Source: Clostridia bacterium (lineage in GTDB: Bacteria > Bacillota > Clostridia > TANB77 > UBA1234). From it: 64,000 nt of DNA. Positions 16,244 to 60,782 of this stretch are shown in pieces (the first letter of the stretch is position 1; the number at the start of each line of letters is the position of its first letter). The position numbers and the translations under genes are program-made. The DNA lies in the NCBI GenBank assembly GCA_017539905.1, contig JAFYBZ010000014.1, positions 184,312 to 248,311 of the forward strand, read 5' to 3'. The notes under the pieces are model-generated. The model was not told the DNA's origin and searched no databases. It saw only the letters and a program-made list of their open reading frames with translations.

Positions 16244-16261
16244 AAATTAATCACTCCTTAA

Positions 16262-16432: not shown

Positions 16433-16446
16433 TTTAAAACTCCTTT

Positions 16447-17116: not shown

Positions 17117-17152
17117 GCTTGTTTTTTGGGACAGGTACGAAAAACATTTTTC
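17117..17152. repeat. REP-like palindromic repeat copy 1 (GCTTGTTTTTTGGGACAGGTACGAAAAACATTTTT)
   Basis: Shares the GGGACA..GT(C)C core. Near-identical to copy 2 at 18733. Confidence 0.65.
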
Positions 17153-17188
17153 TTCTTTTAATATACCCATAATTTCGCCTTTTGTCTA

Positions 17189-18118
17189 TTATTTCGAACA
17201 ATGTCTTGGTCTCTTGCTTTTCTTCTTTTCTCCCTTCTTCTCTGTCATTCCTTTTACCACCTTTTTAATATCTCTTACTTTAATCTCAAATCCAAAATCT
17301 ATATCTTCTCGTGGGTAAAATAAAACGTCTGCTCGTAACAAATCTTTTAATTTATATATGTGATAATCATAAAAACCTTTTGCTTCGTCATAAGCTTCAA
17401 AAAGACCTAAGCATTCATCGTCATCTTCATCTTTGAAGTCACTTCCTAAATATCCTACTTTTTTCTTTCCATCCAAAAATTCAATTTTTGCTTTTTGGCC
17501 TGCTACTTTATGAAGTCCTTCTTCATCCATAAATAGTAAATCTTCATCATAATTATCAAAATACACATGAAGTTCTTTTACTTTTTCTTCAGGAACTTCT
17601 GGCATAAATTCCGCCTTAAATAACTCTAATAATTTTTCTGTTTTAGAATCTTTTGTTTTCTTAACAAGATAACCTAAGTAATCGGCATCTGCAAAAGTCA
17701 TATGAAGCCCTACATCTATATCATCTTCGTCTTCAAGTTCTTTTATAGAATATGGAAGATTCAAATCATCTAATTCTTTTCGTTGCTTTTTGGTTAATTT
17801 TACTTTTTCTTTTAAAATAGGTCTTTCATATGGAATTGGATCACCATTAATTACATAGGCTTGCCTAATTAAATCTTTTGCATCATGTTCATCATCGTTG
17901 GTGATATATTCCATTAAATGTATTATATCAATGAAACAATCTCCTAATATGTTAAATATTTGATTCATCTCTTCTTCTGTTAAACAGCTTTTTTGCAAAT
18001 AATTTTCTAAATCATGTTTTAGTTTTGTTTGAAACTCTAGTTCCATTTCTTTTATATTTAACCATTTCATAATATGGTATTTGGTAGATTCCGACATTTT
18101 TAATGTGATTTTTTTCAT
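17189..18118 (-). CDS. hypothetical acidic protein (309 aa)
   Basis: ORF with GGGAG RBS. Translationally coupled to the upstream gene. No family recognised. Confidence 0.55.
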   Translation of the reverse strand: MKKITLKMSESTKYHIMKWLNIKEMELEFQTKLKHDLENYLQKSCLTEEEMNQIFNILGDCFIDIIHLMEYITNDDEHDAKDLIRQAYVINGDPIPYERPILKEKVKLTKKQRKELDDLNLPYSIKELEDEDDIDVGLHMTFADADYLGYLVKKTKDSKTEKLLELFKAEFMPEVPEEKVKELHVYFDNYDEDLLFMDEEGLHKVAGQKAKIEFLDGKKKVGYLGSDFKDEDDDECLGLFEAYDEAKGFYDYHIYKLKDLLRADVLFYPREDIDFGFEIKVRDIKKVVKGMTEKKGEKKKSKRPRHCSK

Positions 18119-18119
18119 T

Positions 18120-18698
18120 TTAACAACTCCCTATTATTACATATAGTGTTTTTTTATTTTTCTTGCAAAAGAAACTATACTCGGCGACTATGGTATCTTC
18201 ATCTATTTCATCAAATTCAATAGGCAGAACCACTTCTCTATTTTGATCTATTACACCCCATTTGTTGTTTTTACAAACTATATATTTCTTGTCGCTTTCA
18301 TCACTTCCAATTTTCCACACTGCTTTTATATGTTCATATTCAAAAGGAATTATTTCGTTTCCTTTTAAATCTATTACTCCACACTTTTGATTATTTGATT
18401 TATATACACCATGTTCTTTTTTCCACAAGTCGCCTTTATATACAACAAATGAGTCAAAATATGCATATCTTGGCTCATATAAAAACTGTGGTTTAAAAAT
18501 GATTTTATTTGTTTTGTTACTTTTTATTCCCCAGATACCTGGGTTCTCAGCTATGGCATTTCCAAAGTGTAATTTATCAAAAACAGCATTATCTTGGTCA
18601 ATATTTTCAACCAATTCATTAATCCCGCAATATTTTAAAGTAAACGATTTAAAATCAAACTTCCATTTTTTAAAAGATTTTTTTGTTTTGGTTTTCAT
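18120..18698 (-). CDS. WG-repeat-containing hypothetical protein
   Basis: Repeated KWGVID/...IPFEY motifs. Start re-called at MKTKTKK after GAGGAGG. The track's N-terminus (NVFWTCPKK) is translation of a repeat copy. Confidence 0.55.
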   Translation of the reverse strand: MKTKTKKSFKKWKFDFKSFTLKYCGINELVENIDQDNAVFDKLHFGNAIAENPGIWGIKSNKTNKIIFKPQFLYEPRYAYFDSFVVYKGDLWKKEHGVYKSNNQKCGVIDLKGNEIIPFEYEHIKAVWKIGSDESDKKYIVCKNNKWGVIDQNREVVLPIEFDEIDEDTIVAEYSFFCKKNKKTLYVIIGSC

Positions 18699-18732
18699 TA
18701 AGATTCCTCCTCTTTTTTCGTGTTTTTTTGTG

Positions 18733-18768
18733 GCTTGTTTTTTGGGGCAGGTCCAAAAAACATTTTTT
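18733..18768. repeat. REP-like repeat copy 2 (GCTTGTTTTTTGGGGCAGGTCCAAAAAACATTTTTT), in the 5' leader of the 18698 gene
   Basis: Read directly. Lies 35 nt upstream of the start codon. Confidence 0.65.
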
Positions 18769-19036
18769 ATTCCGCACAACAACGGCTTCCAAGAACCTCA
18801 ATCTTCACATCATACAAATTGCCTGTCACTTTCAACAAAGCGAGTTCCATTAATTTTTTATATCGTTTTTCTATAACACGTTTTTGATATAGTGAACTTG
18901 CTTCAAAATAAAAATTATCTTCATCTATAAGTAATGGTTTTAACTTCTTTAACCAACAATCAATTTCAACACATTCATTTTCTTGTTCCATAAGTTCTTT
19001 TGCCAACAACCAATCTAAAACTAATTCTTTATTCAT
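18767..19036 (-). CDS. hypothetical protein (89 aa)
   Basis: ORF; long 5' untranslated region upstream. Confidence 0.45.
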   Translation of the reverse strand: MNKELVLDWLLAKELMEQENECVEIDCWLKKLKPLLIDEDNFYFEASSLYQKRVIEKRYKKLMELALLKVTGNLYDVKIEVLGSRCCAE

Positions 19037-19280
19037 AATTATCTCCTCCTTTTTTTTAAAATGAGTTTTTATAGCTATATTTTTAACTCACTTAAAATTT
19101 TATCATCTCAAAGAAGGAATTTTAAAGCGAACAAAACCTTAAATTAAAATTTCAATCGTAAAGACTATATGTTAAATTCGTATGTAAACCTACAATTATT
19201 TTTGCTCATTTTTGTGCTCATAAAAAATGTGTATATTGAATATGTGAAGCAAAAAACTGTAATAATAATTTAATAATCAA

Positions 19281-19309
19281 AAAAGAGGCAACATAAGTTG
19301 CCTCTTTTT
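19281..19309. terminator. bidirectional rho-independent terminator AAAAGAGGCAAC-ataa-GTTGCCTCTTTTT
   Basis: 11-bp GC-containing stem flanked by A and T runs. Confidence 0.5.
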
Positions 19310-19310
19310 A

Positions 19311-19344
19311 ACTTGTTTCTTGGGACAGCTCCCAAAATTTTTTT
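19311..19344. repeat. REP-like repeat copy 3 (ACTTGTTTCTTGGGACAGCTCCCAAAATTTTTTTC)
   Basis: Core GGGACAGCTCCC is a perfect palindrome. Abuts the stop codon of the 19345 gene. Confidence 0.6.
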
Positions 19345-19917
19345 CTACTTTATTTCAAACCTTAAAAACTCACCATTTTTAAGCTTTGGTGTAACACTTA
19401 AGTCTGTCATCGTTTCAAGAGGAATCTTATTAAAGTAGATATACATTGGGACTAGTACTCCACCATGGGATACTATAAGAATTCTTTTCTCATGATATTT
19501 TTCAATTATCTCATCAAGAAAATCGTATATCCTTTTTGCAAATTCTTGGAATGGTTCGATTCCATTATAACCAACATTTCTTTTATAATTCCATATATCA
19601 GTTATTTCAGGATGCTCTAGTTCAAGTTCACGAATTTCTGGTTTGGTAAGTCCTTCACTATTTCCAAAACTTCTCTCCATTAGTCTTGCATCTTCTATTA
19701 TTGGAATATTAAGCGCTTGGTTAATAATATCGGCTGTCTCTCGTGCTCTTTTTAAAGGCGAGGAAATTATTAAATCAAACTTTTCTCCTTTAATAGAATC
19801 TTTAATAGCTCCTGCTTGTTCTCTTCCAGTATCATTTAATTCAATGTCTTTTTGTCCTTGAATTCGATTCTCTGCATTCCAATTAGTTTGTCCATGTCTA
19901 GTAGCCAAAACATACAT
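19345..19917 (-). CDS. histidine phosphatase (phosphoglycerate-mutase-like) family protein
   Basis: MYVLATRHGQTNWN carries the RHGxTxWN catalytic motif. Start after AAAGAGGTGA. The track's N-terminus is repeat translation. Confidence 0.7.
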   Translation of the reverse strand: MYVLATRHGQTNWNAENRIQGQKDIELNDTGREQAGAIKDSIKGEKFDLIISSPLKRARETADIINQALNIPIIEDARLMERSFGNSEGLTKPEIRELELEHPEITDIWNYKRNVGYNGIEPFQEFAKRIYDFLDEIIEKYHEKRILIVSHGGVLVPMYIYFNKIPLETMTDLSVTPKLKNGEFLRFEIK

Positions 19918-19934
19918 ATTAAGTTCACCTCTTT

Positions 19935-19968
19935 CATGTTTTTTGGGACAGGTCCAAAAGCCATTTTC
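19935..19968. repeat. REP-like repeat copy 4 (CATGTTTTTTGGGACAGGTCCAAAAGCCATTTTC) in the 5' UTR
   Basis: About 18 nt upstream of the RBS of the 19917 gene. A putative promoter (TTGCCA-18-TATAGT) lies further upstream. Confidence 0.65.
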
Positions 19969-20143
19969 TCTATTTCTCCTCATTTATTATCTTCACAATT
20001 TCTTTACTATAATAATTTGCTTTTACTTTTGGCAATATATTATATACTTCTACTTGTGTTTTTGGTTTTATTGATATTAGTTTTTCTAGTTATTCATCGT
20101 TAAATATATAATATGGTGGTTTTCTCCTCCCATATTTTAAATT

Positions 20144-20941
20144 CTAAATTCCATAATAACATGCAATTACATGGACCTTACCATCTTTTATTTCAAATCC
20201 ACCCTCAGACATATCTTTAGCATCTATGCGCAATTCTCCTTCAAATGAAGGCGAGCTATTGTAATACGCTTCAACTGTTTTCTCAACCGGAACAAGGTTA
20301 TCATATGTCCCATAAAAATCCTCATAATCTAATGAAATAATATCATCTGGATATAATTCTATTTTTATTGCATCTTTTTCATTAATTGTTGTCACTTCAA
20401 ATGAGTCTATTACTACACCAGCATAACTCCTATATCTTGGATAAATAAATCCATCATTTTCCTCTCTCAAATATACAGGAGAAGCATAGTCATTTTTTAT
20501 TAAATCCATAAACATAGGAAATCCATTTTTATCAACCCATTCCCCTTCCTTTGCTACTTTCCAATCATCACTAAGGTATGCTTCATTCATTCTTTCGGGA
20601 TCAGGATTTTGTGTATAAATTACAAACCTGCCACCATCTAATAATGGAATCTCGTACTCAGATAGATTTTTCTCCTTTATAGTATTTATCCATGAATCAA
20701 TTTCTTCTTTGGTAAGACGATACATTCCTGATGAGTCAGCAACTAGTTCATAGTGAGCTTCATCAATTTTGTTTAGTCTTATATTTGTATAATGCTTTTT
20801 TGTTCTATCTCCACTATTTTCTTGAAGTTGATCATAATATATTTGAGTTCTCTCTTCGAAAGTTTTATTGACAACTTCTGTATTGTTGCTCAAAATAACA
20901 AGCATTGCAACTAATATTACTATTGAAATATATTTTCCCAT
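20144..20941 (-). CDS. secreted or membrane-anchored hypothetical protein (265 aa)
   Basis: N-terminal hydrophobic segment. GGAGG RBS. Confidence 0.55.
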   Translation of the reverse strand: MGKYISIVILVAMLVILSNNTEVVNKTFEERTQIYYDQLQENSGDRTKKHYTNIRLNKIDEAHYELVADSSGMYRLTKEEIDSWINTIKEKNLSEYEIPLLDGGRFVIYTQNPDPERMNEAYLSDDWKVAKEGEWVDKNGFPMFMDLIKNDYASPVYLREENDGFIYPRYRSYAGVVIDSFEVTTINEKDAIKIELYPDDIISLDYEDFYGTYDNLVPVEKTVEAYYNSSPSFEGELRIDAKDMSEGGFEIKDGKVHVIACYYGI

Positions 20942-20969
20942 TCTTTATTTCCTCCAATTAATAATTATT

Positions 20970-20997
20970 GTGTTTTAGGGACAGGTCCAATATTTTC
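20970..20997. repeat. REP-like repeat copy 5 (GTGTTTTAGGGACAGGTCCAATATTTTC) in the 5' leader of the 20941 gene
   Basis: Read directly. Confidence 0.6.
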
Positions 20998-21004
20998 TAT
21001 TTTT

Positions 21005-21307
21005 CTACCCTATACTCTTCTCTATCGTTCTACACATTTTTCTTTGAACTTCTAGATTATTATCTAGCATATTATATATTCCGTCTTCAGATAGCACTCC
21101 ACGTTTTAAATCATTTGGAAGTTTTCCTTTTTCGTCAGCTTCAAAATCATCTTTCCATTCTTTACTAGAATAATATGTAGCAAGTGTATGTATTCCATCT
21201 TGTGCTTTGTTATATTCTTTTAATGCTTTCTGCAAATTTTTAATTGCAGTATTCGAAGCATTTAATAATTCTTCCATCTCTTCTATTCTTTTAATTCTAT
21301 TATTCAT
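21005..21307 (-). CDS. DUF4298-like small protein
   Basis: YYSSKEWKDDFEADEKGKLPNDLKRGVLSEDGIYNML matches my recollection of DUF4298. Start at MNNRIKRIEE after GGGAGAGAG. Confidence 0.55.
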   Translation of the reverse strand: MNNRIKRIEEMEELLNASNTAIKNLQKALKEYNKAQDGIHTLATYYSSKEWKDDFEADEKGKLPNDLKRGVLSEDGIYNMLDNNLEVQRKMCRTIEKSIG

Positions 21308-21320
21308 AATCTCTCTCCCT

Positions 21321-21350
21321 GATTTTTGGGACACTCACCAAAATCACATC
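21321..21350. repeat. REP-like repeat copy 6 (GATTTTTGGGACACTCACCAAAATCACATC), between promoter TTGTAA-17-TAAAAT and the RBS
   Basis: Read directly. Confidence 0.6.
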
Positions 21351-27075: not shown

Positions 27076-27160
27076 AATGATTCTCCCTTAAAATAATTTT
27101 GTACATCCAAAAATTATTGTATCATTATCTCAATTTCATTTCAACTTTGCATTCTTTGGT

Positions 27161-27275
27161 GCATTTTTGGGACACATCCAAAAAACCATCTTTTCCTGTC
27201 TTTTGGGAACACGTTCAAAAACCCAAAAAAGTTGGAAAAAAGTAAGTGTCCCCAAAAAGCATCCCCAAAAAGCAC
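27161..27275. repeat. compound REP-like array copy 8: three GGGACA/TGTCCC units plus a CCAAC spacer module
   Basis: gcatttttgggacacatccaaaaaacc...cttttgggaacacgttcaaaaac...gttggaaaaaagtaagtgtccccaaaaagcatccccaaaaagcac. Confidence 0.6.
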
Positions 27276-27364
27276 AATTGACAATATGTAAACTCGTGGT
27301 ATAATTGCCTCAAAAGTAAATCTTGAGATTTCTCTTTTAAATAATTTTCAAAGGAGGCGCTAAA

Positions 27365-27616
27365 ATGGAACGGACTAAAACTTGCCCACATTGCAAACAA
27401 GATGTGACCTACACCGATAAAGACATCATCAAAAAATGTGAGTTTGAAAAACCTGTTCCCTTCTGCCGTATTCTCAATGTTTATTGGGATGTTCTCGTTA
27501 AGTGCCCCAACTGTGGAGAGTCTTTCATTGAAAAAGATATTTACATGAATGACGTGATCTATCACGGAAATGCTCACCACACTCCCAAGCCCCGGGTACC
27601 ATTAACTGAAGACTAA
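27365..27616 (+). CDS. YgiT/MqsA-N-type zinc-finger small protein (family member C)
   Basis: CPHCKQDVTYTDKD...PF...NVY..V..CPNCGESFIEKD. RBS AAAGGAGG. Confidence 0.55.
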   Translation: MERTKTCPHCKQDVTYTDKDIIKKCEFEKPVPFCRILNVYWDVLVKCPNCGESFIEKDIYMNDVIYHGNAHHTPKPRVPLTED

Positions 27617-27620
27617 ATTA

Positions 27621-27662
27621 AAAGATGCTTTTTTGGGACACGTCCAAAAAAGCATCTTTTTT
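27621..27662. repeat. REP-like repeat copy 9 acting as terminator-like hairpin (AAAAGATGCTTTTTTGGGACACGTCCAAAAAAGCATCTTTTTT)
   Basis: 19-bp near-perfect inverted arms plus a T-run. One mismatch from copy 22 at 60737. Confidence 0.65.
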
Positions 27663-28245
27663 ATTCATCTTTTTCTCCTAATACAATATCACAAATTGTT
27701 TTATATTTTTCTCTAAACTCTTCTTTTGTTCTATCACTCAAATCATCAAAATCTTTTTCAAAACAATCCTTTATCCAAGTTCGAGCTTCATTTAGACCCA
27801 AGTGATTTCTATTAAATGCAGAATTAAATAACATTGAAATATTATCAAAATGTGCTAATACATCAGCATCTGCTACACATATTTCTTCAATCGTCTCGGC
27901 ATTTTTGCTACTTCTATGATGTAAAACACATTTTAATACTCTCTCTTTTTTATCTTCTGGATAATCAAAATTTTCTAATACTTTACGTGCCAAAATCTCT
28001 CCATTTATGTGATGATCTTTTCTATCACCAACTTTTTTAACAAGTGCAATATCATGAAGTAGTGCACCAAGTTCCACTATCTCTCTATCGGCATTATATT
28101 TATCTGCAAGTTTAATTGATTCTTCATAAACATATTTAATGTGCTCATTCCAATAATCATATTTATCTTCAGCTTGCGATTTATAGTCTTCACTTGCATC
28201 TATTATTATCTTTTTTACTTCTTCAATTATAAGCAACTCTTCCAC
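27661..28245 (-). CDS. HD-domain phosphohydrolase
   Basis: LGALLHDIALVK...H...DADVLAH. Confidence 0.65.
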   Translation of the reverse strand: MEELLIIEEVKKIIIDASEDYKSQAEDKYDYWNEHIKYVYEESIKLADKYNADREIVELGALLHDIALVKKVGDRKDHHINGEILARKVLENFDYPEDKKERVLKCVLHHRSSKNAETIEEICVADADVLAHFDNISMLFNSAFNRNHLGLNEARTWIKDCFEKDFDDLSDRTKEEFREKYKTICDIVLGEKDE

Positions 28246-28258
28246 TTCCTCTTTTTAC

Positions 28259-28286
28259 TTTTTTTAGGACACGTCCAAGAGTCATC
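28259..28286. repeat. degenerate REP-like copy 10 (TTTTTTAGGACACGTCCAAGAGTCATC)
   Basis: Core GGACACGTCC is retained. Confidence 0.45.
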
Positions 28287-29014: not shown

Positions 29015-29048
29015 ATAAAATCCCCCTTTTTTATGTTGTGCAATTTTT

Positions 29049-32972: not shown

Positions 32973-32986
32973 ACTCTATCTCCAGT

Positions 32987-33054
32987 GTGCTTTTTTGGGA
33001 CACTTACAAAAAGTCACCATTTTATGACTTTTTGTAAGTGTCCCAAAAAGTCAC
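32987..33054. repeat. REPIN-like inverted doublet copy 12: GTGCTTTTTTGGGACACTTACAAAAAGTCAC / GACTTTTTGTAAGTGTCCCAAAAAGTCAC
   Basis: Two REP units in inverted orientation around an 8-nt centre. Overlaps the stop codon of the 33051 gene. Confidence 0.7.
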
Positions 33055-33671
33055 GCGTTTTTCATGAAAGCTGCATCTACATACTCCGCTACATGTTCAA
33101 CAGAGTCAAAGCAATCTTCTAATTTATTATAAATAGCTGTCCACCTAATTACTTCAACAGCATCCGTTTCATTAGTGTACAAATCTCTAAGCGATTCTTG
33201 ATAAAGTTTATCGCCTTGCTCCTCCATTCCATTTAAAGCAACACATATTTTTTGTACCTCATCATAATTTTTCATATCTTTAAATGCAACTAGCAACTCA
33301 CTCATTTTATTCGTAGCAACTTCCATAAGATCAACATACTTTCCAATGTTTGGTCTCATTTCTTTTATTGCCAAAATATCAAAGTCGATCATTACCTCAT
33401 CAATGTTATCTACAACATCATCTAGCCTTCTCGTAAGAGTAATGATATCCTCTCTTTCAATTGGTGGAACAAAATCTTTTATTAAATAATTTAAAATTTT
33501 GTGTTGTGTTTTATCTGCCTCACGCTCTTTTTCATGAACTTTCTTTTCTTGCTCGCGAGATTCATCGTATGTATATGATTCAACAAGTTTTCTAAAAGTT
33601 TTTGAAATATCTATCGCACATTTTGACATGTTTATAAATTCATCATAATAGTTTAATTCTTCTTTTTTCAT
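33051..33671 (-). CDS. DUF47-family (PhoU-like) phosphate transport accessory protein
   Basis: 206 aa helical protein directly downstream of the PiT transporter gene, which is the classic pairing. Confidence 0.7.
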   Translation of the reverse strand: MKKEELNYYDEFINMSKCAIDISKTFRKLVESYTYDESREQEKKVHEKEREADKTQHKILNYLIKDFVPPIEREDIITLTRRLDDVVDNIDEVMIDFDILAIKEMRPNIGKYVDLMEVATNKMSELLVAFKDMKNYDEVQKICVALNGMEEQGDKLYQESLRDLYTNETDAVEVIRWTAIYNKLEDCFDSVEHVAEYVDAAFMKNA

Positions 33672-33686
33672 TTTGCATCCTCCAAT

Positions 33687-34736
33687 CTAACCAGCTATTT
33701 TTAGTAAAACTATCGTTAATAAATATCCTAAAAATCCGCATCCTGGAAAAACTAAAAACCACGAAACAATCAAATTCTTTACGATTTTCCAATTTACATT
33801 AGACAATCTTTTTGCAGCGCCAACACCCATGATTGCAGTTGTTTTTGTATGTGTTGTACTTACTGGCATACCAAAAACACTTGATAATAGCAAGCACGAT
33901 GCTCCAGCTAAGTCAGCACACATTCCTTCATAAGGTTCTATTTTTACCATTTTAATTCCAACTGTTTTTATAATTTTATAACCGCCGATTGAAACTCCGA
34001 TTCCCATAGTTAGGCTACAAAGTATAATTAACCAAACTGGAATTACCATCTCCCCTTGATTTCCACCAAGAGCAGCAAACGAAATTGCTAATAAAAATAT
34101 TCCCATGAATTTTTGTCCATCTTGTGCACCATGCATGAATGCCATAAATGCACCACTTAAAACTTGTCCTTTTTTAAAAACTTTATTTGCTTTTAATCTA
34201 TTAACTTTTTTAAATGTTACTTTAATAATTTTTGCTATTACAAATCCTAATAAAAATCCAATTACTAAAGATAAAAGTAATCCATAAATAACTTTTTTCC
34301 ATTCATCAATATTTACACCAGAGAATCCGTGATTAATTGCTATAGCTGCACCAGTGATTCCTGCAATCAACGCATGACTTTCTGATGATGGGATTCCAAA
34401 TTTTGTAGCTAAGACTGCCCACAAAATTGCACCTACTATTCCTGCGCTCAATGCAATCAATGCATAAGTTTTATTATCTCCGTAGTCCACTAAATTTGAC
34501 ATTGTAGATACGACATTCGAACTAATAAAACTCATTATTAAAACACCAGCGGCATCAAATATAGCTGCCATAATAATAGCATTTCGCGGCTTGATAGTTC
34601 TTGTAGAAACGCAAGTAGCTATTGCATTTGGTGCATCAGTCATACCATTTACAAGCATTAATCCAAGAACTAATAATGAAATGATAAGCAATATTGGATT
34701 ACTTAACACATTATTAAAATACTCTAAAATTGTCAT
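33687..34736 (-). CDS. pitA: inorganic phosphate transporter, PiT family
   Basis: MTILEYFNN...GMTDAPNAIATCVSTR and the duplicated GANDGQK-type motif (MAFMHGAQDGQKFMG). Start after GGGAGAG. The track's N-terminal 45 aa are repeat translation. Confidence 0.8.
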   Translation of the reverse strand: MTILEYFNNVLSNPILLIISLLVLGLMLVNGMTDAPNAIATCVSTRTIKPRNAIIMAAIFDAAGVLIMSFISSNVVSTMSNLVDYGDNKTYALIALSAGIVGAILWAVLATKFGIPSSESHALIAGITGAAIAINHGFSGVNIDEWKKVIYGLLLSLVIGFLLGFVIAKIIKVTFKKVNRLKANKVFKKGQVLSGAFMAFMHGAQDGQKFMGIFLLAISFAALGGNQGEMVIPVWLIILCSLTMGIGVSIGGYKIIKTVGIKMVKIEPYEGMCADLAGASCLLLSSVFGMPVSTTHTKTTAIMGVGAAKRLSNVNWKIVKNLIVSWFLVFPGCGFLGYLLTIVLLKIAG

Positions 34737-34759
34737 TCGTCTCTCCCACTTTTTTCCTT

Positions 34760-34825
34760 GGAATTTGGGGACACTTACTTTTTTCCAACTTTTTTGGTTT
34801 TTTTGGAAGTGTCCCAAAAAAGCAC
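34760..34825. repeat. REPIN-like element copy 13 (GGGGACACTTAC-TTTTTTCCAACTTTTTTGG-TTTTTTTGGAAGTGTCCCAAAAAAGCAC) in the pit leader
   Basis: Inverted REP arms GGGACACTTAC / GGAAGTGTCCC around a CCAAC spacer. Confidence 0.7.
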
Positions 34826-35114
34826 ATTCATTAACTTCTATTATACCAATCAAAATTTTTCTCTTCAACAAAGCATTTTTTGATGATTTCCTTTATAAGC
34901 ACAACTAATGTATAGTATTATGATTAATTATTTTACATTATGTTAAATTCATAGTATAATAAAATTGTACAAAGGTACAATAAAAATCAACATTTCGGAA
35001 TCAGACACATTCGATTAATCTCATATTACTAAAAAATATGAGTAGAGCATTTGTTAATTGAAATCGTGTATGGTCGCTGAGAAATGTTGTGCAAGAAAGG
35101 AAAGCATTTTTCTA

Positions 35115-35309
35115 ATGAGTATGATCCCCTTCCTCATGGCTAAGGCTGCTTACGATAAGCGGCATGGTAAATCACATAGTGCTGCTGGCGATGCTTTAGA
35201 CAACACCGGAACGGTTATCGCCATGATCTTTATTGCCATTATTCCTCTGTGTATTGTTGGCGGCATTATTGAACTAATCCTTATGCTTTGCGGCGTTATT
35301 ACCCCGTAA
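35115..35309 (+). CDS. small membrane protein (64 aa) at the start of the GC-rich block
   Basis: MSMIPFLMAKAAYDKRHGKSHSAAGDALDNTGTVIAMIFIAIIPLCIVGG. Terminator hairpin at 35323-35352. Confidence 0.35.
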   Translation: MSMIPFLMAKAAYDKRHGKSHSAAGDALDNTGTVIAMIFIAIIPLCIVGGIIELILMLCGVITP

Positions 35310-35361
35310 AGTAGGAAAAAAAGCAAGGTGAGCTCTACACCTTGCCTTTTTTTGTTTGGAC

Positions 35362-35476
35362 TTGAGTTGGCTTTTTGGGACAATTCTATTTTTCCAACTT
35401 TTTTTGCTTTTTTGTAATTGTCCCCAAATTCCAGAAAAAGTTGGAAAAATAGCAGTGTCCCAAAAAGCCAACTCAA
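35362..35476. repeat. MITE-like compound REP element copy 14 with perfect 21-bp terminal inverted repeats (TTGAGTTGGCTTTTTGGGACA ... TGTCCCAAAAAGCCAACTCAA)
   Basis: Terminal inverted repeats at 35362-35382 and 35456-35476. The interior has two more GGGACA/TGTCCCC units and CCAAC/GTTGG modules. Confidence 0.7.
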
Positions 35477-37459: not shown

Positions 37460-37492
37460 GTGCTTTTTTGGGACACTTACAAAAAGTCTCAC
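37460..37492. repeat. REP-like copy 15 (GTGCTTTTTTGGGACACTTACAAAAAGTCTCAC)
   Basis: Identical, apart from one extra G, to copy 16. Direct orientation. Confidence 0.7.
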
Positions 37493-38559
37493 TTCAAAAG
37501 CTTTGCCACTCTCTCCGGAATACTCCTTGGCGCTCTTATAAAACTACATCCATGCTCTTTTAAAAAGCTATATGGATATTCGTTGTTTTTATATTTTTTA
37601 ATCAGCTTTAATTCCATGTCTCTTGCTGAATATATTTTTAAATTTGTTTTTATAATTTCGCATTTATATAAAATTTGTGAATATGGTGCACCAACATAAA
37701 TATAAACAAGATCCCCCACTTTTGCTTCTTTAGGCTGCTTATGCCACACAAAAGTTTTATTATTATCAACGTAACTTACCACATCAAACACATTTATATT
37801 CGACGGAATAATAAACGCACCCGACTTAACTGTCATTTGATAACTATCATCTAAAAGTCTGTATGTATCTTTTAGTTTTGTATTTTTATCGAGAATAATT
37901 GTTATCCAGCTTTCTTTATTCATGTGATAACCAGGAAAAACATTTTGATAATCAATTACCTCTTTTGATTTTTCTTTATCTATATGCAAGTCCAAAACTT
38001 CGATATAATCATCATCCGAAAAATCTTTTATATTTAAAAGTGGATGATCAGAAATCACGCCATCTATTTTCATTCTTTTTAATGTAGATGTGACAAAACT
38101 TTTTTCTCTAACTTTCATGATAACGCCATACCATTTTTTGTTGTCTTGATTTCTAAATACAGCGCCATCGTAATCATCCCACAAAAATTCTAATTCACCA
38201 TCAAATTTTTCTTTTACATATGAAATGATTTTCTTTGCGGATGGCGATTTAAAAGTATCTAAATACGTGCATTTTTCAACGAACTTTTCTAACACTTCTT
38301 CGTATTCTTCTTTAATGCTACCAACAAATTGTCCACTCGATTCTTCAACATCTACGAGAGCATATTCTGATTCATCAAAATTGTCTAGCACTTTTGAAAT
38401 CGCTTTTTTCTTATCGACTTCAATAACAACTTTAAACTCTCCATCTTTTATATCTTTGATGTAAGTATATTTATCTTTATTTTTCTTAAAGCCAAACTTA
38501 GTAAGTTTGGCTTCATCAATTGATCGACTTTTCAAATACGCCTTATACAAATCTCTCAT
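37489..38559 (-). CDS. hypothetical protein with MmcQ/YjbR-like segment (PGYHMNKESW) and C-terminal EVE/PUA-like region
   Basis: 356 aa ORF. AGGAG RBS. The family assignment is weak. Confidence 0.45.
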   Translation of the reverse strand: MRDLYKAYLKSRSIDEAKLTKFGFKKNKDKYTYIKDIKDGEFKVVIEVDKKKAISKVLDNFDESEYALVDVEESSGQFVGSIKEEYEEVLEKFVEKCTYLDTFKSPSAKKIISYVKEKFDGELEFLWDDYDGAVFRNQDNKKWYGVIMKVREKSFVTSTLKRMKIDGVISDHPLLNIKDFSDDDYIEVLDLHIDKEKSKEVIDYQNVFPGYHMNKESWITIILDKNTKLKDTYRLLDDSYQMTVKSGAFIIPSNINVFDVVSYVDNNKTFVWHKQPKEAKVGDLVYIYVGAPYSQILYKCEIIKTNLKIYSARDMELKLIKKYKNNEYPYSFLKEHGCSFIRAPRSIPERVAKLLK

Positions 38560-38600
38560 TTAATTCTCCTATAAATAAAATCTTCCGCTGTTAACGTGTT

Positions 38601-38633
38601 GTGCTTTTTGGGGACACTTACAAAAAGTCTCAC
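38601..38633. repeat. REP-like copy 16 (GTGCTTTTTGGGGACACTTACAAAAAGTCTCAC)
   Basis: Direct repeat of copy 15. Together they bracket the single gene 37489..38559. Confidence 0.7.
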
Positions 38634-39082
38634 TTTATTTTTCTAATAAAATCTTCCAATCCCTCTGGCATATTTTCTTTTGAAATCATAAAGCCTTGAT
38701 TATTTGCAATCATCAAATAAAAATTTGTTTTTGTCTCGATGATTTCGCTTAGTTTTTCATAAGGAACTTTGGCTTCTCCGCCATCGTGTTTTTCATACAA
38801 GTAGTCCTTATAAAACTCATACGAAACATCAACATTTTGCATCAATTTGTTTGAATTAAAAACTCTGTGCACGCCTATCTTTAAGGCTATATAAAACAAG
38901 ATTGGATAAATAATCGCGAAAATAACTAGCACATTATTTTGTAATAAATATCCACTTACAAAAAGACAAATACAAGCAATTATCGAAAGCAAAACTATAT
39001 GTCTCTTTTTAATTAGCGCCCAGTTAAATTTTTTATATTCATCAATTGTAAATTTAGTTGTCGTTTTAAATAAATAATCCAT
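38630..39082 (-). CDS. YcxB-like membrane protein
   Basis: Start at MDYLFKTTTKF after GGAGAA. Two transmembrane helices then a PH-like domain. The track's N-terminus is repeat translation. Confidence 0.5.
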   Translation of the reverse strand: MDYLFKTTTKFTIDEYKKFNWALIKKRHIVLLSIIACICLFVSGYLLQNNVLVIFAIIYPILFYIALKIGVHRVFNSNKLMQNVDVSYEFYKDYLYEKHDGGEAKVPYEKLSEIIETKTNFYLMIANNQGFMISKENMPEGLEDFIRKIK

Positions 39083-39094
39083 CTTTTCTCCTTC

Positions 39095-39161
39095 TGCTTT
39101 TTGGGGACACTTACTTTTTTCCAACTTTTTCGGGTTTTTTGGACGTGTCCCAAAAAATCAC
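39095..39161. repeat. REPIN-like element copy 17 (..GGGGACACTTAC-TTTTTTCCAACTTTTTCGGG-TTTTTTGGACGTGTCCCAAAAAATCAC)
   Basis: Lies between the exonuclease stop and the RBS of the 39082 gene. Confidence 0.7.
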
Positions 39162-39745
39162 TTAAATAATTTTTTGAATTCATCAAAGCTATCATATTCA
39201 CTGCAAATTGATTTGCACATTTTCTTATAGACCTTGTTAGTTAAATCGCAATCATTTAGCGCTCTATGTTTGTTACGCACCTTTATTCCATAGTAATCCG
39301 TTAAATCATCTAATTTATGATGATCCAAATCCTTGATGTGTTTTCTTGCAATTTTTAAAGTGTCAACAAAATCATTTGTCAAAGGTTCATCTAAAACCTC
39401 TTCGAAATTATCATACAAAAAATTTACATCAAAATTTACGTTGTGACCAAGTATAATATCGTCTTCTAAAAAATCCCTGAAATCATACAAAACATCTTCG
39501 AGCTCATCGCCCTCATCCTCAACCATCCTTGTAGTAATTCCTGTTAGATTACTTATAAAATACGGAATCCTTTCGTGCGGATTAATAAGTCTCGAAAATG
39601 TGTCAATTTCTTTTCCATCTCTAACCTTAATTGCACTTATTTCAATTATTTTATTATAACTTGGGCTCATGCCTGTTGTTTCAATATCAAGCACCGTATA
39701 ATCCTTAAGCTTTTCCACGATGCTTTTGCCTTTCAAATCTCTCAT
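39158..39745 (-). CDS. DnaQ-like DEDDh 3'-5' exonuclease
   Basis: Exo I LDIETTG, Exo II HNVNFD, Exo III HRALNDC. Start at MRDLKGK after AAGGAAA. The alternative start is 39763. Confidence 0.75.
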   Translation of the reverse strand: MRDLKGKSIVEKLKDYTVLDIETTGMSPSYNKIIEISAIKVRDGKEIDTFSRLINPHERIPYFISNLTGITTRMVEDEGDELEDVLYDFRDFLEDDIILGHNVNFDVNFLYDNFEEVLDEPLTNDFVDTLKIARKHIKDLDHHKLDDLTDYYGIKVRNKHRALNDCDLTNKVYKKMCKSICSEYDSFDEFKKLFK

Positions 39746-39763
39746 TTTTATTTCCTTTTCCAT

Positions 39764-40777
39764 CTAGTTATTATCAAAGTATTCACTAATTTTCTGTTCA
39801 AACTTATTTTTACTTCCAATTCCTTTGATACTATTTACTTTTTTATCAATTACGCAGAACAATTCTCCATTTGAGTTAATTGATCCTAATAAGCTTGGGA
39901 AAGCAGTTAGCATTATAAGTAGAAAACAAACTAAAAAAACTGTCATGCAAACTATAATAAGATATTTTGATAAATCCAAATTAAATCTTGCTACAAACAT
40001 GCTTAAAATCAATATAACTGGCGCAAGTATTAGTCCAAGAGCAATGAGGAAAAAAGTTGCATCTTTTACCTTTAAGTTTGCGCCACTTACATTCCCATTT
40101 ACATCATTAATATAATAAGTGTATGGTTTTCCATTTTGCTCAGCAGTAACAATCCAAACTGGATAATAATATCTATTAGTCTCTGTTACCTCATAATCAA
40201 TTCTTGATTTATAGCTTCTTCCATCCCCACTTAGTTGGTTACTAGTAAACACGATTTTTTGAATTGAATCTAAAATCGCTTTATCTCCTTTTCGATGTGC
40301 TTTTTCTTTTTCACTTAATTCAATACTACTTGTGTAGATACTATCTGCTACAGAGCTACACTCTACTACTCCATCGTTATCAACAAAATCTAAAAATTCA
40401 CAATCAGAATAATTTGAATAATCAATCATTGGCTTATAGCTTTTATCTGTAAATGGAGCTATCACTTTAAATTGATTTATATCAATATCTTTGTGATTTG
40501 CACAAAGCATTAAACTAAATTTTGATTCAGTATCTGCTTCATAATAAGCTGGAACCGGGCCGTTTTTTCCTCCATTAAGCATTTTCTCATAAAACGAATT
40601 TGCTTTGGATTCAATGATGTATTTATAGAATGGAACATATACTTTTTTTGCACTTGTCATTTTTATATCACGTGCATTTAGCGCCCATCCATTATGACAG
40701 ATAAATCTTTTAGCTTTTTTCTTTGCCCATCTTTCAGTATGTGCAAATTTTATTATTCCATCAACATTTTGCATCAT
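39764..40777 (-). CDS. membrane protein with C-terminal transmembrane helices, translationally coupled to the exonuclease
   Basis: 337 aa. Its stop abuts the exonuclease ORF. Confidence 0.5.
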   Translation of the reverse strand: MMQNVDGIIKFAHTERWAKKKAKRFICHNGWALNARDIKMTSAKKVYVPFYKYIIESKANSFYEKMLNGGKNGPVPAYYEADTESKFSLMLCANHKDIDINQFKVIAPFTDKSYKPMIDYSNYSDCEFLDFVDNDGVVECSSVADSIYTSSIELSEKEKAHRKGDKAILDSIQKIVFTSNQLSGDGRSYKSRIDYEVTETNRYYYPVWIVTAEQNGKPYTYYINDVNGNVSGANLKVKDATFFLIALGLILAPVILILSMFVARFNLDLSKYLIIVCMTVFLVCFLLIMLTAFPSLLGSINSNGELFCVIDKKVNSIKGIGSKNKFEQKISEYFDNN

Positions 40778-40830
40778 TTTCCCCCTTAATTTCGCTACTT
40801 ATTTTATCATTTTTTTGCCTATTTTTCAAT

Positions 40831-40869
40831 AAAAAAAGCTTTTTTGGAACACGTCCAAAAAAGCATCAC
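40831..40869. repeat. REP-like copy 18 (AAAAAAAGCTTTTTTGGAACACGTCCAAAAAAGCATCAC)
   Basis: Read directly. Confidence 0.6.
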
Positions 40870-41339: not shown

Positions 41340-41372
41340 CCTAAACTTCACCGCCATCATTATACCACAAAG

Positions 41373-41478
41373 TGCTTTTTTGGGACACGTCCATTTTTCC
41401 AACTATTTCTGGAATTTTGGGACACTTCCATTTTTCCAACTTTTTCTGGTTTTTTGTATGTGTCCCAAAAATCCAACC
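41373..41478. repeat. compound REP array copy 19, 3' flank of the RAYT gene
   Basis: gtgcttttttgggacacgtccatttttccaactatttctgg aattttgggacacttccatttttccaactttttctgg ttttttgtatgtgtcccaaaaatccaacc. Two direct units plus one inverted. Confidence 0.7.
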
Positions 41479-41483
41479 CAAAA

Positions 41484-42248
41484 TTACAATTTCACTTTAT
41501 AATTCTCATCAAGTATTGCTTTAGAAACACTAAGCCAATTGATAATATCTTTTTGTTTCAATTTGCATTCTTGATTCAAATATACAATCAATTTTTGCAA
41601 TACTGCTCGAACGCTAAAGATTTCAATCAAAGAATGATTATACTCCGCGATAAAACTTCTAACGCCATCTTCAAAGTACTCATGACTAATCTTTGTCGAA
41701 TCAAGATCCATAAACACTCTGTCATAAGCTTCGTCTATCGCTTTCAAATAATTCACATTTTCTCCGAACACTTCTTTCAAAATCTCACACTTTGCACAAC
41801 CTTGTCCACGCAAATAATCTTGATACGATGAGTACGAATAAGCCTCACAACAGGTTGCTATTCCTGCCTTTACAGGATTGTTGTGAATATACTTTATGCA
41901 ATTTACTAAATGCGACATTTCATAAATCGGTTCCAATTGATATCTATTTCTAAATACAACTCCTACTCTATCTTCGCTTTTATTATAAAAGTTAGCAAAA
42001 TTTTGATTCACTGATTTCATAAATTGTCCAAAGCATTCGATATCTTTCACATAGAATAAAAAATGTGCGTGATTATTCATCATGCAATAAGCAAGCAAAT
42101 CAAATTCTTTGTAGTGTGATTCACTCTTTATACTCTTTAAATAATAATTTAGATTTTTGGGATTATCAAAAACATATTCTTTATTTACACCTTGAACCAT
42201 AACATGAATGAATGGTGTATTAATTTTTTTGCGTGCAACACGTGACAT
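41484..42248 (-). CDS. HUH-Y1 transposase-like protein, REP-associated tyrosine transposase (RAYT/TnpA-REP)-like
   Basis: HUH motif MMNNHAHFLFYV and Tyr motif YIHNNPVKAGI, as in IS200/RAYT Y1 enzymes. GGAGG RBS. Flanked on both sides by compound repeat arrays. Confidence 0.7.
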   Translation of the reverse strand: MSRVARKKINTPFIHVMVQGVNKEYVFDNPKNLNYYLKSIKSESHYKEFDLLAYCMMNNHAHFLFYVKDIECFGQFMKSVNQNFANFYNKSEDRVGVVFRNRYQLEPIYEMSHLVNCIKYIHNNPVKAGIATCCEAYSYSSYQDYLRGQGCAKCEILKEVFGENVNYLKAIDEAYDRVFMDLDSTKISHEYFEDGVRSFIAEYNHSLIEIFSVRAVLQKLIVYLNQECKLKQKDIINWLSVSKAILDENYKVKL

Positions 42249-42364
42249 TAGAAATCCTCCTTATATGCAAAAAGGGAGTTAGATTCATACTCAATCTAAC
42301 CCCCACACTTATTTTACAGCTTCATATTACCATTATCTATAAAAATTGCAATACCTTTTTACTT

Positions 42365-42469
42365 GGAATTTTGGGACAGGTCCAAAATTCCAACTTTTCT
42401 TGGATTTTTGTAAGTGTCCCAAAATCCCAACTTTTTCTGGATTTTTGTAAGTGTCCCCAAAAGTCACAC
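42365..42469. repeat. compound REP array copy 20, 5' flank of the RAYT gene
   Basis: ggaattttgggacaggtccaaaattccaacttttcttgg atttttgtaagtgtcccaaaatcccaactttttctgg atttttgtaagtgtccccaaaagtcacac. Confidence 0.7.
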
Positions 42470-45033: not shown

Positions 45034-45111
45034 GGCGGGTGCTTTTTGGGGACACTGCTAAAAAACCAGGAAATCCTGGTTTTTTAGCAGTGTCCCCAAA
45101 AAGCACCCGCC
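45034..45111. repeat. perfect 78-bp palindromic REPIN copy 21 (38-bp arms GGCGGGTGCTTTTTGGGGACACTGCTAAAAAACCAGGA with a 2-nt centre)
   Basis: Both arms are identical as reverse complements, suggesting recent duplication or mobilisation. Confidence 0.75.
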
Positions 45112-60736: not shown

Positions 60737-60782
60737 AAAGATGCTTTTTTGGGACACCTCCAAAAAAGCATCTTTTTTTTCT
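60737..60782. repeat. REP-like copy 22 (AAAGATGCTTTTTTGGGACACCTCCAAAAAAGCATCTTTTTTTTC), terminator-like
   Basis: One mismatch from copy 9 at 27621, about 33 kb away. Confidence 0.65.

What the first reader, a model, noticed from the sequence alone, without database searches (positions are those of the whole stretch)
41373..42469. HUH-Y1 (RAYT-like) transposase gene bracketed by compound arrays of the repeat
The 254-aa ORF carries an HUH motif (NNHAHFLF) and the Tyr motif YIHNNPVKAGI typical of IS200/RAYT Y1 enzymes. It lacks IS200-type terminal hairpins. It is instead flanked by two roughly 105-bp arrays, each holding three units of the repeat. The downstream array has two direct units plus one inverted, and the upstream array mirrors it. 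A RAYT flanked by inverted REP clusters is the diagnostic arrangement of REP-RAYT systems, with the RAYT as the presumed REP-mobilising enzyme. This links the dispersed repeats to a candidate cognate enzyme.
Basis: partly seen in the sequence, partly recalled or inferred. Interest (0 to 1): 0.85.

Follow-up and report, generated by a model that had tools for sequence, protein, structure and literature searches.

The report
RAYT-type transposase flanked by its repeats
A single, intact HUH-tyrosine (RAYT-class) nuclease gene in an uncultured low-GC gut or rumen Clostridia genome is bracketed by mirror-image triplets of the same small hairpin repeat that litters the neighbouring intergenic DNA, so this is a real example, in a new host group, of a known kind of system.

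Summary

Two 106-bp arrays flank the gene: 41372-41477 (units + + -) and 42363-42468 (units + - -). Each holds three ~30-nt hairpin units with an invariant GGGACA core. The window holds 33 units in 21 clusters, all outside ORFs apart from stop-codon overlaps and one unit in the 5' end of an uncertain ORF call (core motif: 27 hits against 0.9 expected).

In 75 related loci from Clostridia MAGs, 69% carry a >=12-nt inverted match across the gene, against 3.3% of control ORFs. The repeat core co-varies with the protein clade (p = 2e-8). Paralogues within one genome have different repeats.

The precise label is not a classical GTAG-REP RAYT. It has a C-terminal helix-turn-helix domain, the GGGG[AT][CG]A[CG] flank motif, no GTAG foot and none of the GTAG-reading residues. 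That is the described TIRYT / TnpA_Y1 subclass 2.1 type. Di Nocera 2013 reported at most moderately abundant repeat families for TIRYTs. Quentin 2018 found no REPs for subclass 2.1.

Single-copy status is supported but not proven. Mobilisation of the repeats is inferred. Verdict: a new member of a known kind, of moderate interest.

The parts
41484..42248 (-). 254-aa Y1 HUH endonuclease gene (RAYT / TnpA_REP class). The catalytic domain is about residues 1-145 (H60, H62, Y120). The C-terminal helical HTH-like domain is about residues 185-250.
41372..41477 (.). Array on the 3' side of the gene: three repeat units at 41372-41402 (+), 41409-41439 (+) and 41447-41477 (-). It ends 6 nt from the RAYT stop codon. 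Units 2 and 3 form a REPIN-like inverted pair.
42363..42468 (.). Array on the 5' side of the gene: three repeat units at 42363-42393 (+), 42400-42431 (-) and 42438-42468 (-), the mirror image of the other array. The outermost unit supplies the TGA stop (42464-42466) of the upstream 88-aa ORF.
42274..42304 (-). Terminator-like leader hairpin (GGGGGTTAGATT ... AATCTAACTCCC followed by TTTTT). It lies between a promoter-like site (42311-42339) and the RBS (42256-42262), and probably keeps RAYT expression low.
   Evidence: The structure is conserved, with compensatory changes at all 11 pairs, in 18 clade members.
15988..21346 (+). Seven dispersed singlet units, all in + orientation: 15988-16011, 17117-17146, 18733-18762, 19313-19338, 19938-19962, 20973-20993, 21321-21346.
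27158..28278 (.). A triplet at 27158-27262 (+ + -) plus singlets at 27625-27655 (+) and 28261-28278 (+).
32986..35472 (.). Inverted doublets at 32986-33054 and 34759-34826 (+ -), and a triplet at 35366-35472 (+ - -).
37460..40866 (.). Singlets at 37460-37488, 38600-38629 and 40838-40866 (all +), and a doublet at 39094-39161 (+ -). All abut the stop codons of minus-strand genes.
45038..45107 (.). A perfect 70-nt REPIN-like palindrome (+ -). DNA fold energy is -45.7 kcal/mol, z = -16.7.
60740..60771 (+). An outlying singlet unit, 98% identical to the unit at 27621-27662.

Best explanation
This is a REPtron-like locus. A catalytically intact Y1 HUH endonuclease of the RAYT/TnpA_REP class, apparently single-copy, is bracketed by mirror-image triplets of its cognate repeat.

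The repeat is a ~30-nt hairpin. It has an A/T-rich stem of variable sequence (TG-N2-3-T4-6 paired with A5-6-N-CA) and an invariant GGGACA, mostly GGGACAC, at the top of the 5' arm and in the loop. The same repeat populates the surrounding extragenic DNA as singlets, inverted doublets (REPIN-like long hairpins) and triplets.

The enzyme has the TIRYT / TnpA_Y1 subclass 2.1 architecture: a catalytic core plus a C-terminal helix-turn-helix domain.

The most likely mechanism is inferred from E. coli TnpA_REP and IS608 TnpA. The protein binds the folded repeat on transiently single-stranded DNA, then cleaves and rejoins next to it through Tyr120, with His60 and His62 holding the metal. This creates and maintains the repeat population. 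The HTH domain probably adds recognition of the conserved GGGAC box or targets the enzyme. A terminator-like leader hairpin keeps expression low.

Shown here: the fold, the motifs, the flank architecture, the dispersal, and the family-wide co-variation of repeat with protein. Inferred: cleavage, the strand used, and the mobilisation itself.
For: - Motifs and homology: Pfam Y1_Tnp 26.6 bits against a cut-off of 23. NCBIfam REP_Tyr_transpos E = 7e-17 for this protein, matched by 26 of 26 family members, with only 7 of 26 weak IS200 hits. The family profile hits only 4ER8 TnpA_REP in the PDB, at E = 7.6e-4.
- Flanks and dispersal. There are 33 units in 21 clusters, all outside ORFs apart from stop-codon overlaps and one unit (19938-19962) inside the 5' end of a longest-ATG ORF call. 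The core motif gives 27 hits against 0.9 expected.
- Unit hairpin: 72% of cells are paired, against 36-59% when partners are slid. The covariation score is 0.19 against 0.10, reached by 0 of 500 shuffles. Folding z-scores run from -9 to -17 for singlets and palindromic doublets.
- Family-wide linkage: 52 of 75 homologue loci have a >=12-nt exact inverted match between their 250-bp flanks, against 16 of 481 control ORFs. GGGAC density is 4.1/kb in the flanks and 0.44/kb elsewhere.
- Co-variation: the GGGACAC core goes with the window's clade, and GGGACGG, GGGACAG or GGGACGT with other clades (Fisher p = 2e-8).
- Paralogues: copies in one MAG are 36-64% identical, and their flanking inverted repeats differ where both were recovered.
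- Not IS-like: there is one copy in the window. The contigs carrying it share one context. No close relatives occur on 72,556 plasmids or 50,697 phages.
Against: - No biochemical evidence exists for this subclass. No insertion polymorphism was seen, because the only other strains available (98.9-100% identical) carry identical arrays.
- The GTAG foot is absent, and so are the E. coli GTAG-reading residues. W94, Q95, E100, H101 and R104 align to V, F, Q, L and I. Recognition must therefore differ from the one solved example.
- Only 64 kb of this genome was available, so genome-wide copy numbers of the gene and of the repeat are extrapolations.
- In most relatives the repeat is sparse: a median of about 1 extra copy per 10 kb, and 20 of 68 loci with 3 or more. 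Proliferation is therefore not a constant property of the family.
- All 12 singlets place GGGACAC on the strand that is the leading-strand template. That is not the orientation expected if the GGGACAC strand were attacked on the lagging-strand template, as in IS608.
Confidence: 0.75

Rival explanations
1. The whole 1.1-kb cassette (arrays plus gene) is itself an autonomous IS200-like or 'TIRtron' mobile element. It moves as a unit, and the dispersed repeats are its solo ends or MITE-like derivatives.
For: - The outermost units are inverted, like terminal inverted repeats.
- Cassette position is not syntenic in relatives.
- In a related organism whose LysR gene is 90.7% identical in nucleotide sequence to window 23590-23998, a 63%-identical RAYT with its own repeats sits directly beside that gene. 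The window has neither a RAYT nor a repeat at that site.
Against: - No second copy occurs in the window, and the contigs carrying the protein share one context.
- The locus and arrays are unchanged in a strain that differs by 1.1%.
- Paralogues in one genome are 36-64% identical, not recent copies.
- The family is essentially absent from plasmids and phages.
- The flanks are multi-unit arrays of the dispersed repeat, not unique ends.
Confidence: 0.15
2. The repeats are primarily host regulatory hairpins (intrinsic terminators or 3'-end mRNA stabilisers) that spread or arose independently of the gene. The gene is a domesticated HUH protein that merely sits among them or binds them for a host function.
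For: - 12 of 21 clusters lie within 15 nt of, or overlap, a stop codon.
- All 12 singlets share one orientation relative to the co-directional genes.
- Singlets are hairpins followed by T runs, and the terminator scan flags one unit.
Against: - A purely regulatory origin does not explain why the gene is bracketed by the repeat in 69% of 75 homologue loci, against 3.3% of controls.
- It does not explain why the repeat core changes with the protein clade, or why paralogues in one genome carry different flanking repeats.
- A terminator role and RAYT-driven spread are not mutually exclusive.
Confidence: 0.08
3. An ordinary IS200/IS605 TnpA gene with degenerate ends that lies in a repeat-rich region by chance.
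For: The Pfam Y1_Tnp hit is the generic IS200-like model. Seven of 26 family members weakly hit NCBIfam IS200.
Against: - REP_Tyr_transpos scores far higher in all 26 members, and 4ER8 is the best match by both sequence and fold.
- The Tyr motif is YIHNNPV, as in RAYTs.
- There is no TnpB neighbour.
- The flanks are the dispersed repeat, in mirror order.
Confidence: 0.02

Closest known systems
TIRYT / TIRtron (Di Nocera et al. 2013, PMC3733652), equated with TnpA_Y1 subclass 2.1 (Quentin et al. 2018, PMC6006769)
   Same: - A RAYT-like Y1 core plus a C-terminal HTH-type extension.
- The gene is flanked by inverted repeats that carry GGGG[AT][CG]A[CG]. Here that motif is GGGGACAC in 8 of 26 aligned units, including the outermost 5'-side unit, and TGGGACAC in most others.
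- No GTAG foot, and the GTAG-reading residues are replaced.
- Some TIR families were reported as dimers or clusters, like REPs.
   Different: - The host is an uncultured low-GC Clostridia lineage, which the text of the 2013 paper never mentions (word search).
- The flanks are arrays of three short hairpin units rather than one long TIR.
- The repeat is dense (33 units in 64 kb) and behaves like REP/REPIN, whereas Quentin et al. state that no REP-like sequences were found for subclass 2.1.
- The C-terminal domain is not recognised by Pfam Bac_DnaA_C, HTH_23 or HTH_28 in this protein. Its profile finds only 97 representatives among 1.84 billion proteins.
E. coli TnpA_REP (RAYT, PDB 4ER8) and its REPtron
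   Same: - HUH and Tyr lie in the same places, and the Tyr helix motif Y-I-x-x-N-P-V-K is shared.
- The gene is flanked on both sides by multiple inverted copies of a genome-wide extragenic hairpin repeat. The E. coli REPtron holds three REP pairs (PMC6006769).
   Different: - 13% identity, and 254 aa against 165 aa because of the extra HTH domain.
- The repeat has no GT[AG]G foot. Its conserved element is apical (GGGACAC) rather than at the foot, and its stem is A/T-rich.
- The residues that read GTAG are not conserved.
REPIN-RAYT systems of Pseudomonas and Enterobacteria (Bertels & Rainey 2011, PMC3116915; Bertels et al. 2017, PMC5581495, Groups 2 and 3)
   Same: - An apparently single-copy gene.
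- Inverted doublets that fold into long hairpins (REPIN-like).
- Several diverged RAYT paralogues per genome, each with its own repeat family.
- Chromosomal, with no close relatives on plasmids.
   Different: - A different protein clade and a different host phylum.
- Bertels et al. found abundant flanking 16-mers only for Groups 2 and 3, and mention Clostridia only for the less REP-associated Group 1.
- Synteny of the gene is not conserved among the relatives sampled here.
IS200/IS608 TnpA (PDB 2VHG)
   Different: This gene is not multi-copy, has no private subterminal LE/RE ends, has no TnpB partner, carries a different Tyr-helix motif, and is closer to RAYT by every score.

Membership tests
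Y1 HUH transposase superfamily (Pfam PF01797) | HUH metal-binding motif and a single catalytic Tyr on the following helix | tested here: met
   H60, H62 and Y120 are invariant in 26 sequences. HxH and Y-x-x-x-N-P are present in all full-length homologues. The Pfam score of 26.6 exceeds the cut-off of 23.
Y1 HUH transposase superfamily (Pfam PF01797) | Y1 transposase fold | tested here: met
   [not shown]
RAYT / TnpA_REP (class 2 TnpA_Y1) | Closer to TnpA_REP than to IS200 TnpA | tested here: met
   [not shown]
RAYT / TnpA_REP (class 2 TnpA_Y1) | Gene flanked on both sides by inverted copies of a repeat | tested here: met
   for the window. In relatives, 52 of 75 loci meet this against 3.3% of controls.
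RAYT / TnpA_REP (class 2 TnpA_Y1) | The same repeat is dispersed at high copy number in extragenic space | tested here: met
   33 units in 21 clusters, all outside ORFs apart from stop-codon overlaps and one unit in the 5' end of an uncertain ORF call. The core motif gives 27 hits against 0.9 expected. This covers only 64 kb.
RAYT / TnpA_REP (class 2 TnpA_Y1) | Single or low copy per genome, with no identical duplicates and not plasmid-borne | tested here: inconclusive
   There is one copy in the window. Nine contigs carry the exact protein. The four returned map to the window's locus, and the other five were reported as having mostly the same neighbours. Paralogues in relatives are 36-64% identical. 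No close plasmid or phage relatives were found. The whole genome was not available.
Classical GTAG-REP RAYT (subclasses 2.2, 2.4, 2.5, 2.7, 2.8; Bertels Groups 2 and 3) | The repeat carries a 5' GT[AG]G foot at the base of the hairpin | tested here: not met
   In the unit alignment the positions 5' of the stem are not conserved. The conserved block is T-run plus GGGACAC at the apex.
Classical GTAG-REP RAYT (subclasses 2.2, 2.4, 2.5, 2.7, 2.8; Bertels Groups 2 and 3) | Conservation of the GTAG-reading residues (E. coli W94, Q95, E100, H101, R104) | tested here: not met
   The profile alignment to 4ER8 places V, F, Q, L and I at those positions. The family instead has an invariant F-R-N-R-Y.
TIRYT / TnpA_Y1 subclass 2.1 | C-terminal HTH extension (Bac_DnaA_C, HTH_23 or HTH_28-like) | tested here: inconclusive
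   [not shown]
TIRYT / TnpA_Y1 subclass 2.1 | Flanking inverted repeats contain GGGG[AT][CG]A[CG] | tested here: met
   GGGGACAC occurs in 8 of 26 units, including the unit at 42438-42468. The other units differ at one position (TGGGACAC). GGGGACAC is also the flank core in most close relatives.
TIRYT / TnpA_Y1 subclass 2.1 | Clusters with subclass 2.1 reference sequences or HMMs | not tested
RAYT Groups 1-6 (Bertels et al. 2017) | MCL cluster membership | not tested
   No reference sequences were available. Only the published note that Group 1 also occurs in Clostridia applies.
Any RAYT | Sequence- and structure-specific cleavage of the cognate repeat as single-stranded DNA | not testable with these tools
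   This needs purified protein and oligonucleotides.

The most novel reading that the evidence does not exclude
HTH-bearing subclass 2.1 / TIRYT enzymes, which the 2018 survey reported as REP-less, would in fact be bona fide REP/REPIN mobilisers. They would use a different recognition logic: an apical GGGAC box read with the help of the C-terminal HTH domain, instead of a GTAG foot. In small, low-GC gut and rumen Clostridia genomes they would have produced a dense population of hairpins that is strand-biased and abuts stop codons, and that now doubles as gene-end punctuation. The rapidly diverging C-terminal domain would set repeat specificity. Its similarity separates the GGGACAC clade more cleanly than the catalytic core does.
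Probability: 0.4. Interest if true: 0.6.

Novelty: new member of a known kind. Interest (0 to 1): 0.45.

Why it matters
REP/REPIN-RAYT systems have been studied almost entirely in Proteobacteria and with GTAG-footed repeats.

This locus and its roughly 75 relatives show the same gene-plus-cognate-repeat partnership in uncultured Clostridia, with an enzyme subclass for which the published survey found no associated REPs.

The natural co-variation set offers many protein clades, each with its own GGGAC-type hairpin, and several pairs within single genomes. It could be used to work out how a Y1 nuclease with an added HTH domain recognises its hairpin.

It also explains a conspicuous repeat family that fragments metagenomic assemblies of these organisms and sits on gene ends.

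It does not reveal a new kind of system.

Tried and rejected
- Synteny as a test of vertical inheritance. Proteins encoded around the RAYT (window about 33-51 kb) were searched in all 80 related loci. None lies next to a homologue's RAYT. The contexts of the 56% and 52% relatives also differ. So neither vertical fixation nor transfer can be concluded at this depth.\n- Insertion polymorphism as direct evidence of mobility. The other contigs of this organism are 99.98-100% identical with no indels. A strain 98.9% identical has the same arrays with point changes only. This was uninformative.\n- L087 (the '92% identical' protein P0005) looks like a chimeric contig. It matches the window at 100% over locus positions 34-570, then becomes unrelated high-GC sequence. 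It was discarded.\n- Sequence identification of the C-terminal domain. Pfam at E <= 10 found nothing consistent. A PDB profile search found nothing below E = 0.48. A profile search of 1.84 billion representatives found only this family and fragments of it, with no bridge to DnaA or to other HTH proteins.\n- Rfam has no family for the repeat. Its only window hit is a SAM riboswitch. There are no tRNAs.\n- A first attempt to split the N- and C-terminal domains by regex cut at the wrong Tyr. It was redone.\n- Considered and rejected: a CRISPR-like array (no constant spacing and no spacers), and a second degraded RAYT inside the ORF-poor stretch 27075-28286 (no tblastn signal).

Full report
**Observation**

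The ORF at 41484-42248 on the minus strand encodes 254 aa. It has a canonical RBS (AAGGAGG, 42256-42262) 7 nt from the ATG. Its sequence contains NNHAHFLF and YIHNNPVKAGI, as reported.

In an alignment with 25 homologues that are 44-62% identical, H60, H62 and Y120 are invariant. All full-length relatives recovered from genomes keep HxH and the Tyr motif.

A profile built from 26 in-register repeat units places three units on each side of the gene:
- 3' side: 41372-41402 (+), 41409-41439 (+), 41447-41477 (-).
- 5' side: 42363-42393 (+), 42400-42431 (-), 42438-42468 (-).

All six have E <= 5e-7. The core TTTTGGGACAC (<=1 mismatch) occurs 27 times in the window, against 0.9 expected from shuffles.

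**The repeat**

The unit is about 30 nt with the consensus TG-n-TTTTTT-GGGACAC-TT-aC-AAAAA-n-CCA, and GGGACA is invariant.

It folds as an 11-bp, A/T-rich stem of variable sequence. The conserved GGGACAC occupies the top of the 5' arm and the 7-nt loop.
- 72% of cells pair in register, against 36-59% when the partners are slid.
- The covariation score is 0.19 against 0.10, reached by 0 of 500 shuffles.
- Singlets and palindromic doublets fold far better than shuffles, with z from -9 to -17.

The window holds 33 units (E <= 0.05) in 21 clusters:
- 12 singlets, all in + orientation.
- 5 inverted doublets, all '+ -' (REPIN-like).
- 4 triplets, two '+ + -' and two '+ - -'.

The clusters lie outside ORFs, apart from short overlaps with stop codons and one unit (19938-19962) that falls in the 5' end of a longest-ATG ORF call, whose start may be mis-assigned. 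Twelve of the 21 clusters lie within 15 nt of, or overlap, a stop codon. The doublets next to the RAYT belong to the same ~70-nt doublet population found at five other sites. Rfam has no family for the repeat.

**The protein**

- Pfam Y1_Tnp scores just above its cut-off.
- NCBIfam REP_Tyr_transpos gives E = 7e-17 but 61.6 bits, below the 80-bit equivalog cut-off.
- All 26 aligned family members hit that model, whereas only 7 hit IS200 weakly.
- The family profile finds a single PDB sequence, E. coli TnpA_REP 4ER8.

Residues about 146-254 have no counterpart in the 165-aa E. coli enzyme.
- They are conserved across the family but invisible to Pfam and to PDB sequence searches.
- Their profile finds only 97 representatives among 1.84 billion proteins, all ~250-aa proteins of this type or fragments of them.
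- In more distant family members the homologous last ~25 residues give weak HTH_7, HTH_23, HTH_28 or Sigma70_r4 hits.

I therefore read the C-terminal domain as a divergent helix-turn-helix.

**Is the gene-repeat link real?**

A scan of one genome per species returned 80 loci from about 73 uncultured Clostridia MAGs from rumen and gut.
- Of the 75 loci with both flanks available, 52 (69%) have an exact inverted match of >=12 nt between the 250 bp upstream and the 250 bp downstream. Only 16 of 481 (3.3%) control ORFs in the same loci do.
- In many loci the shared flank k-mers are also the most frequent k-mers of the locus.
- GGGAC is nine times denser in the flanks than in the rest of the loci.
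- The sequence after GGGAC tracks the protein clade. GGGACAC goes with the window's clade, and GGGACGG, GGGACAG or GGGACGT with the others (Fisher p = 2e-8).
- Similarity of the C-terminal domain separates the GGGACAC clade more cleanly than the catalytic core does. This is only suggestive, because that domain simply evolves faster.
- Six MAGs carry two or three paralogues that are 36-64% identical, and where both flanking repeats were recovered they differ.

This is the pattern expected of cognate enzyme-repeat pairs. A chance location in a repeat-rich region does not explain it.

**IS or domesticated gene?**

- No second copy is present in the window.
- Nine contigs in public assemblies carry the exact protein. 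The four returned map to the window's locus at 99.98-100% identity, and the other five were reported as having mostly the same neighbours.
- A strain differing by 1.1% has the same locus and arrays.
- Neither plasmids nor phages hold close relatives.
- No TnpB-like neighbour is present. The flanking genes are a YbaK-type tRNA-editing protein, an 88-aa ORF and an aldolase-II-like protein.

Against strict vertical fixation, cassette position is not syntenic in the relatives sampled. A related organism, whose LysR gene is 90.7% identical to the window's, has a 63%-identical RAYT with its own GGGGACACTCCC repeats directly beside that gene. The window has neither at that site. The cassettes have therefore been gained, lost or moved over evolutionary time.

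**Comparison with the literature**

Di Nocera et al. 2013 (PMC3733652) described RAYT-like genes flanked by inverted repeats that share GGGGWSAS. They named these TIRYT/TIRtrons and noted that some TIR families are moderately abundant and arranged as dimers or clusters.

Quentin et al. 2018 (PMC6006769) placed most TIRYTs in TnpA_Y1 subclass 2.1. That subclass is defined by a C-terminal HTH extension (Bac_DnaA_C, HTH_23 or HTH_28). They state that neither automatic nor manual searches found REP-like sequences for it, and that its motif in the GTAG-reading region differs.

The present protein fits that description:
- It has an HTH-like C-terminus.
- GGGGACAC matches GGGG[AT][CG]A[CG].
- There is no GT[AG]G foot.
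- E. coli W94, Q95, E100, H101 and R104 are replaced by V, F, Q, L and I.

Membership by clustering could not be tested. Bertels et al. 2017 (PMC5581495) found abundant flanking repeats only for RAYT Groups 2 and 3, and mention Clostridia only under Group 1.

What this locus adds is a new host lineage, flanks built from arrays of short hairpin units, and a dense REP/REPIN-like dispersal for this enzyme type.

**Mechanism (inferred)**

By analogy with E. coli TnpA_REP and IS608 TnpA, the enzyme should bind the folded unit on single-stranded DNA. It should then cut and rejoin beside it through Tyr120, with His60 and His62 co-ordinating the metal. The invariance of GGGAC across all clades makes it the likely protein-read element.

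GC skew is negative along almost the whole window, so the minus strand is the leading strand. All singlets therefore carry GGGACAC on the leading-strand template. That is the opposite of the simple IS608-style expectation. Either the complementary strand is the substrate, or the bias reflects selection at gene ends. The data cannot separate these, because transcription and replication run in the same direction here.

A terminator-like hairpin lies between a promoter-like site and the RBS (42274-42304). It is conserved as a structure, with compensatory changes at all 11 pairs, in 18 clade members. It probably keeps expression low, as is known for IS200 (my own knowledge).

**Verdict**

This is a new member of a known kind. 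Interest is moderate (0.45). It is a clean, well-replicated natural dataset for an understudied enzyme subclass, but not a new category of system.

Noticed in passing
window 42274-42304 (-), with promoter-like site 42311-42339 and RBS 42256-42262: A terminator-like hairpin plus T-run sits in the RAYT leader, immediately before the RBS. The structure is conserved in 18 members of the clade, with compensatory changes at all 11 pairs, although the stem sequences differ. More distant clades instead share a GGGGCAAA-type box about 25-30 nt upstream of the start.
   Followed up: partly
window, 21 repeat clusters (e.g. 33025-33054, 37460-37488, 38600-38629, 39132-39161, 40838-40866, 42438-42468): Twelve of 21 clusters lie within 15 nt of, or overlap, a stop codon, almost all of minus-strand genes. 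The unit's GTGA(C) foot supplies the TGA of the 88-aa ORF 42464-42730. All 12 singlets are in + orientation and all 5 doublets are '+ -'.
   Followed up: partly
window 27158-27262 and 35366-35472: Two further triplet arrays have the same polarity as those flanking the RAYT ('+ + -' on the left, '+ - -' on the right). They bracket an 8-kb, multi-gene segment that contains no RAYT. Whether this is coincidence or the footprint of a larger REP-bounded unit is unknown.
   Followed up: no
L088 1-1496 versus window 23590-24455: A related organism has a 63%-identical RAYT, with its own GGGGACACTCCC repeats, directly downstream of a LysR gene that is 90.7% identical in nucleotide sequence to the window's. 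The window has a small ORF and no repeat at that site. The cassette has therefore been gained, lost or relocated between close relatives.
   Followed up: partly
window 27075-28286: About 1.2 kb has no ORF of 90 aa or more. It holds five repeat units and shows no tblastn trace of a decayed RAYT.
   Followed up: partly
window 14987-15073 (-): A SAM (S-box) riboswitch, 53.3 bits against a gathering score of 44.4, lies upstream of the gene at 14139-14996.
   Followed up: no
window 5615-9265 (-) and 9270-12824 (-): A 1216-aa protein with Eco57I/MmeI-type methylase domains lies next to a 1184-aa ORF, probably a type IIG/IIL restriction-modification or defence locus. The first 16 kb of the window contains no repeat unit.
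   Followed up: no
window 25002-25207 versus 28836-29050: A direct repeat of about 200 bp at 71-77% identity covers the 5' ends and upstream regions of two paralogous minus-strand genes (24455-25171 and 28286-29053).
   Followed up: no
L087 (ERZ28653885 scaffold_250891): This contig matches the window at 100% over locus positions 34-570, then switches to unrelated high-GC sequence inside the RAYT ORF. It is probably an assembly chimera, and it accounts for the '92% identity, 57% coverage' database protein P0005.
   Followed up: yes
L048 10001-10240: One homologue is truncated to 79 aa in frame, by a frameshift or as a pseudogene, yet GGGACAC-type repeats remain frequent in its locus.
   Followed up: no
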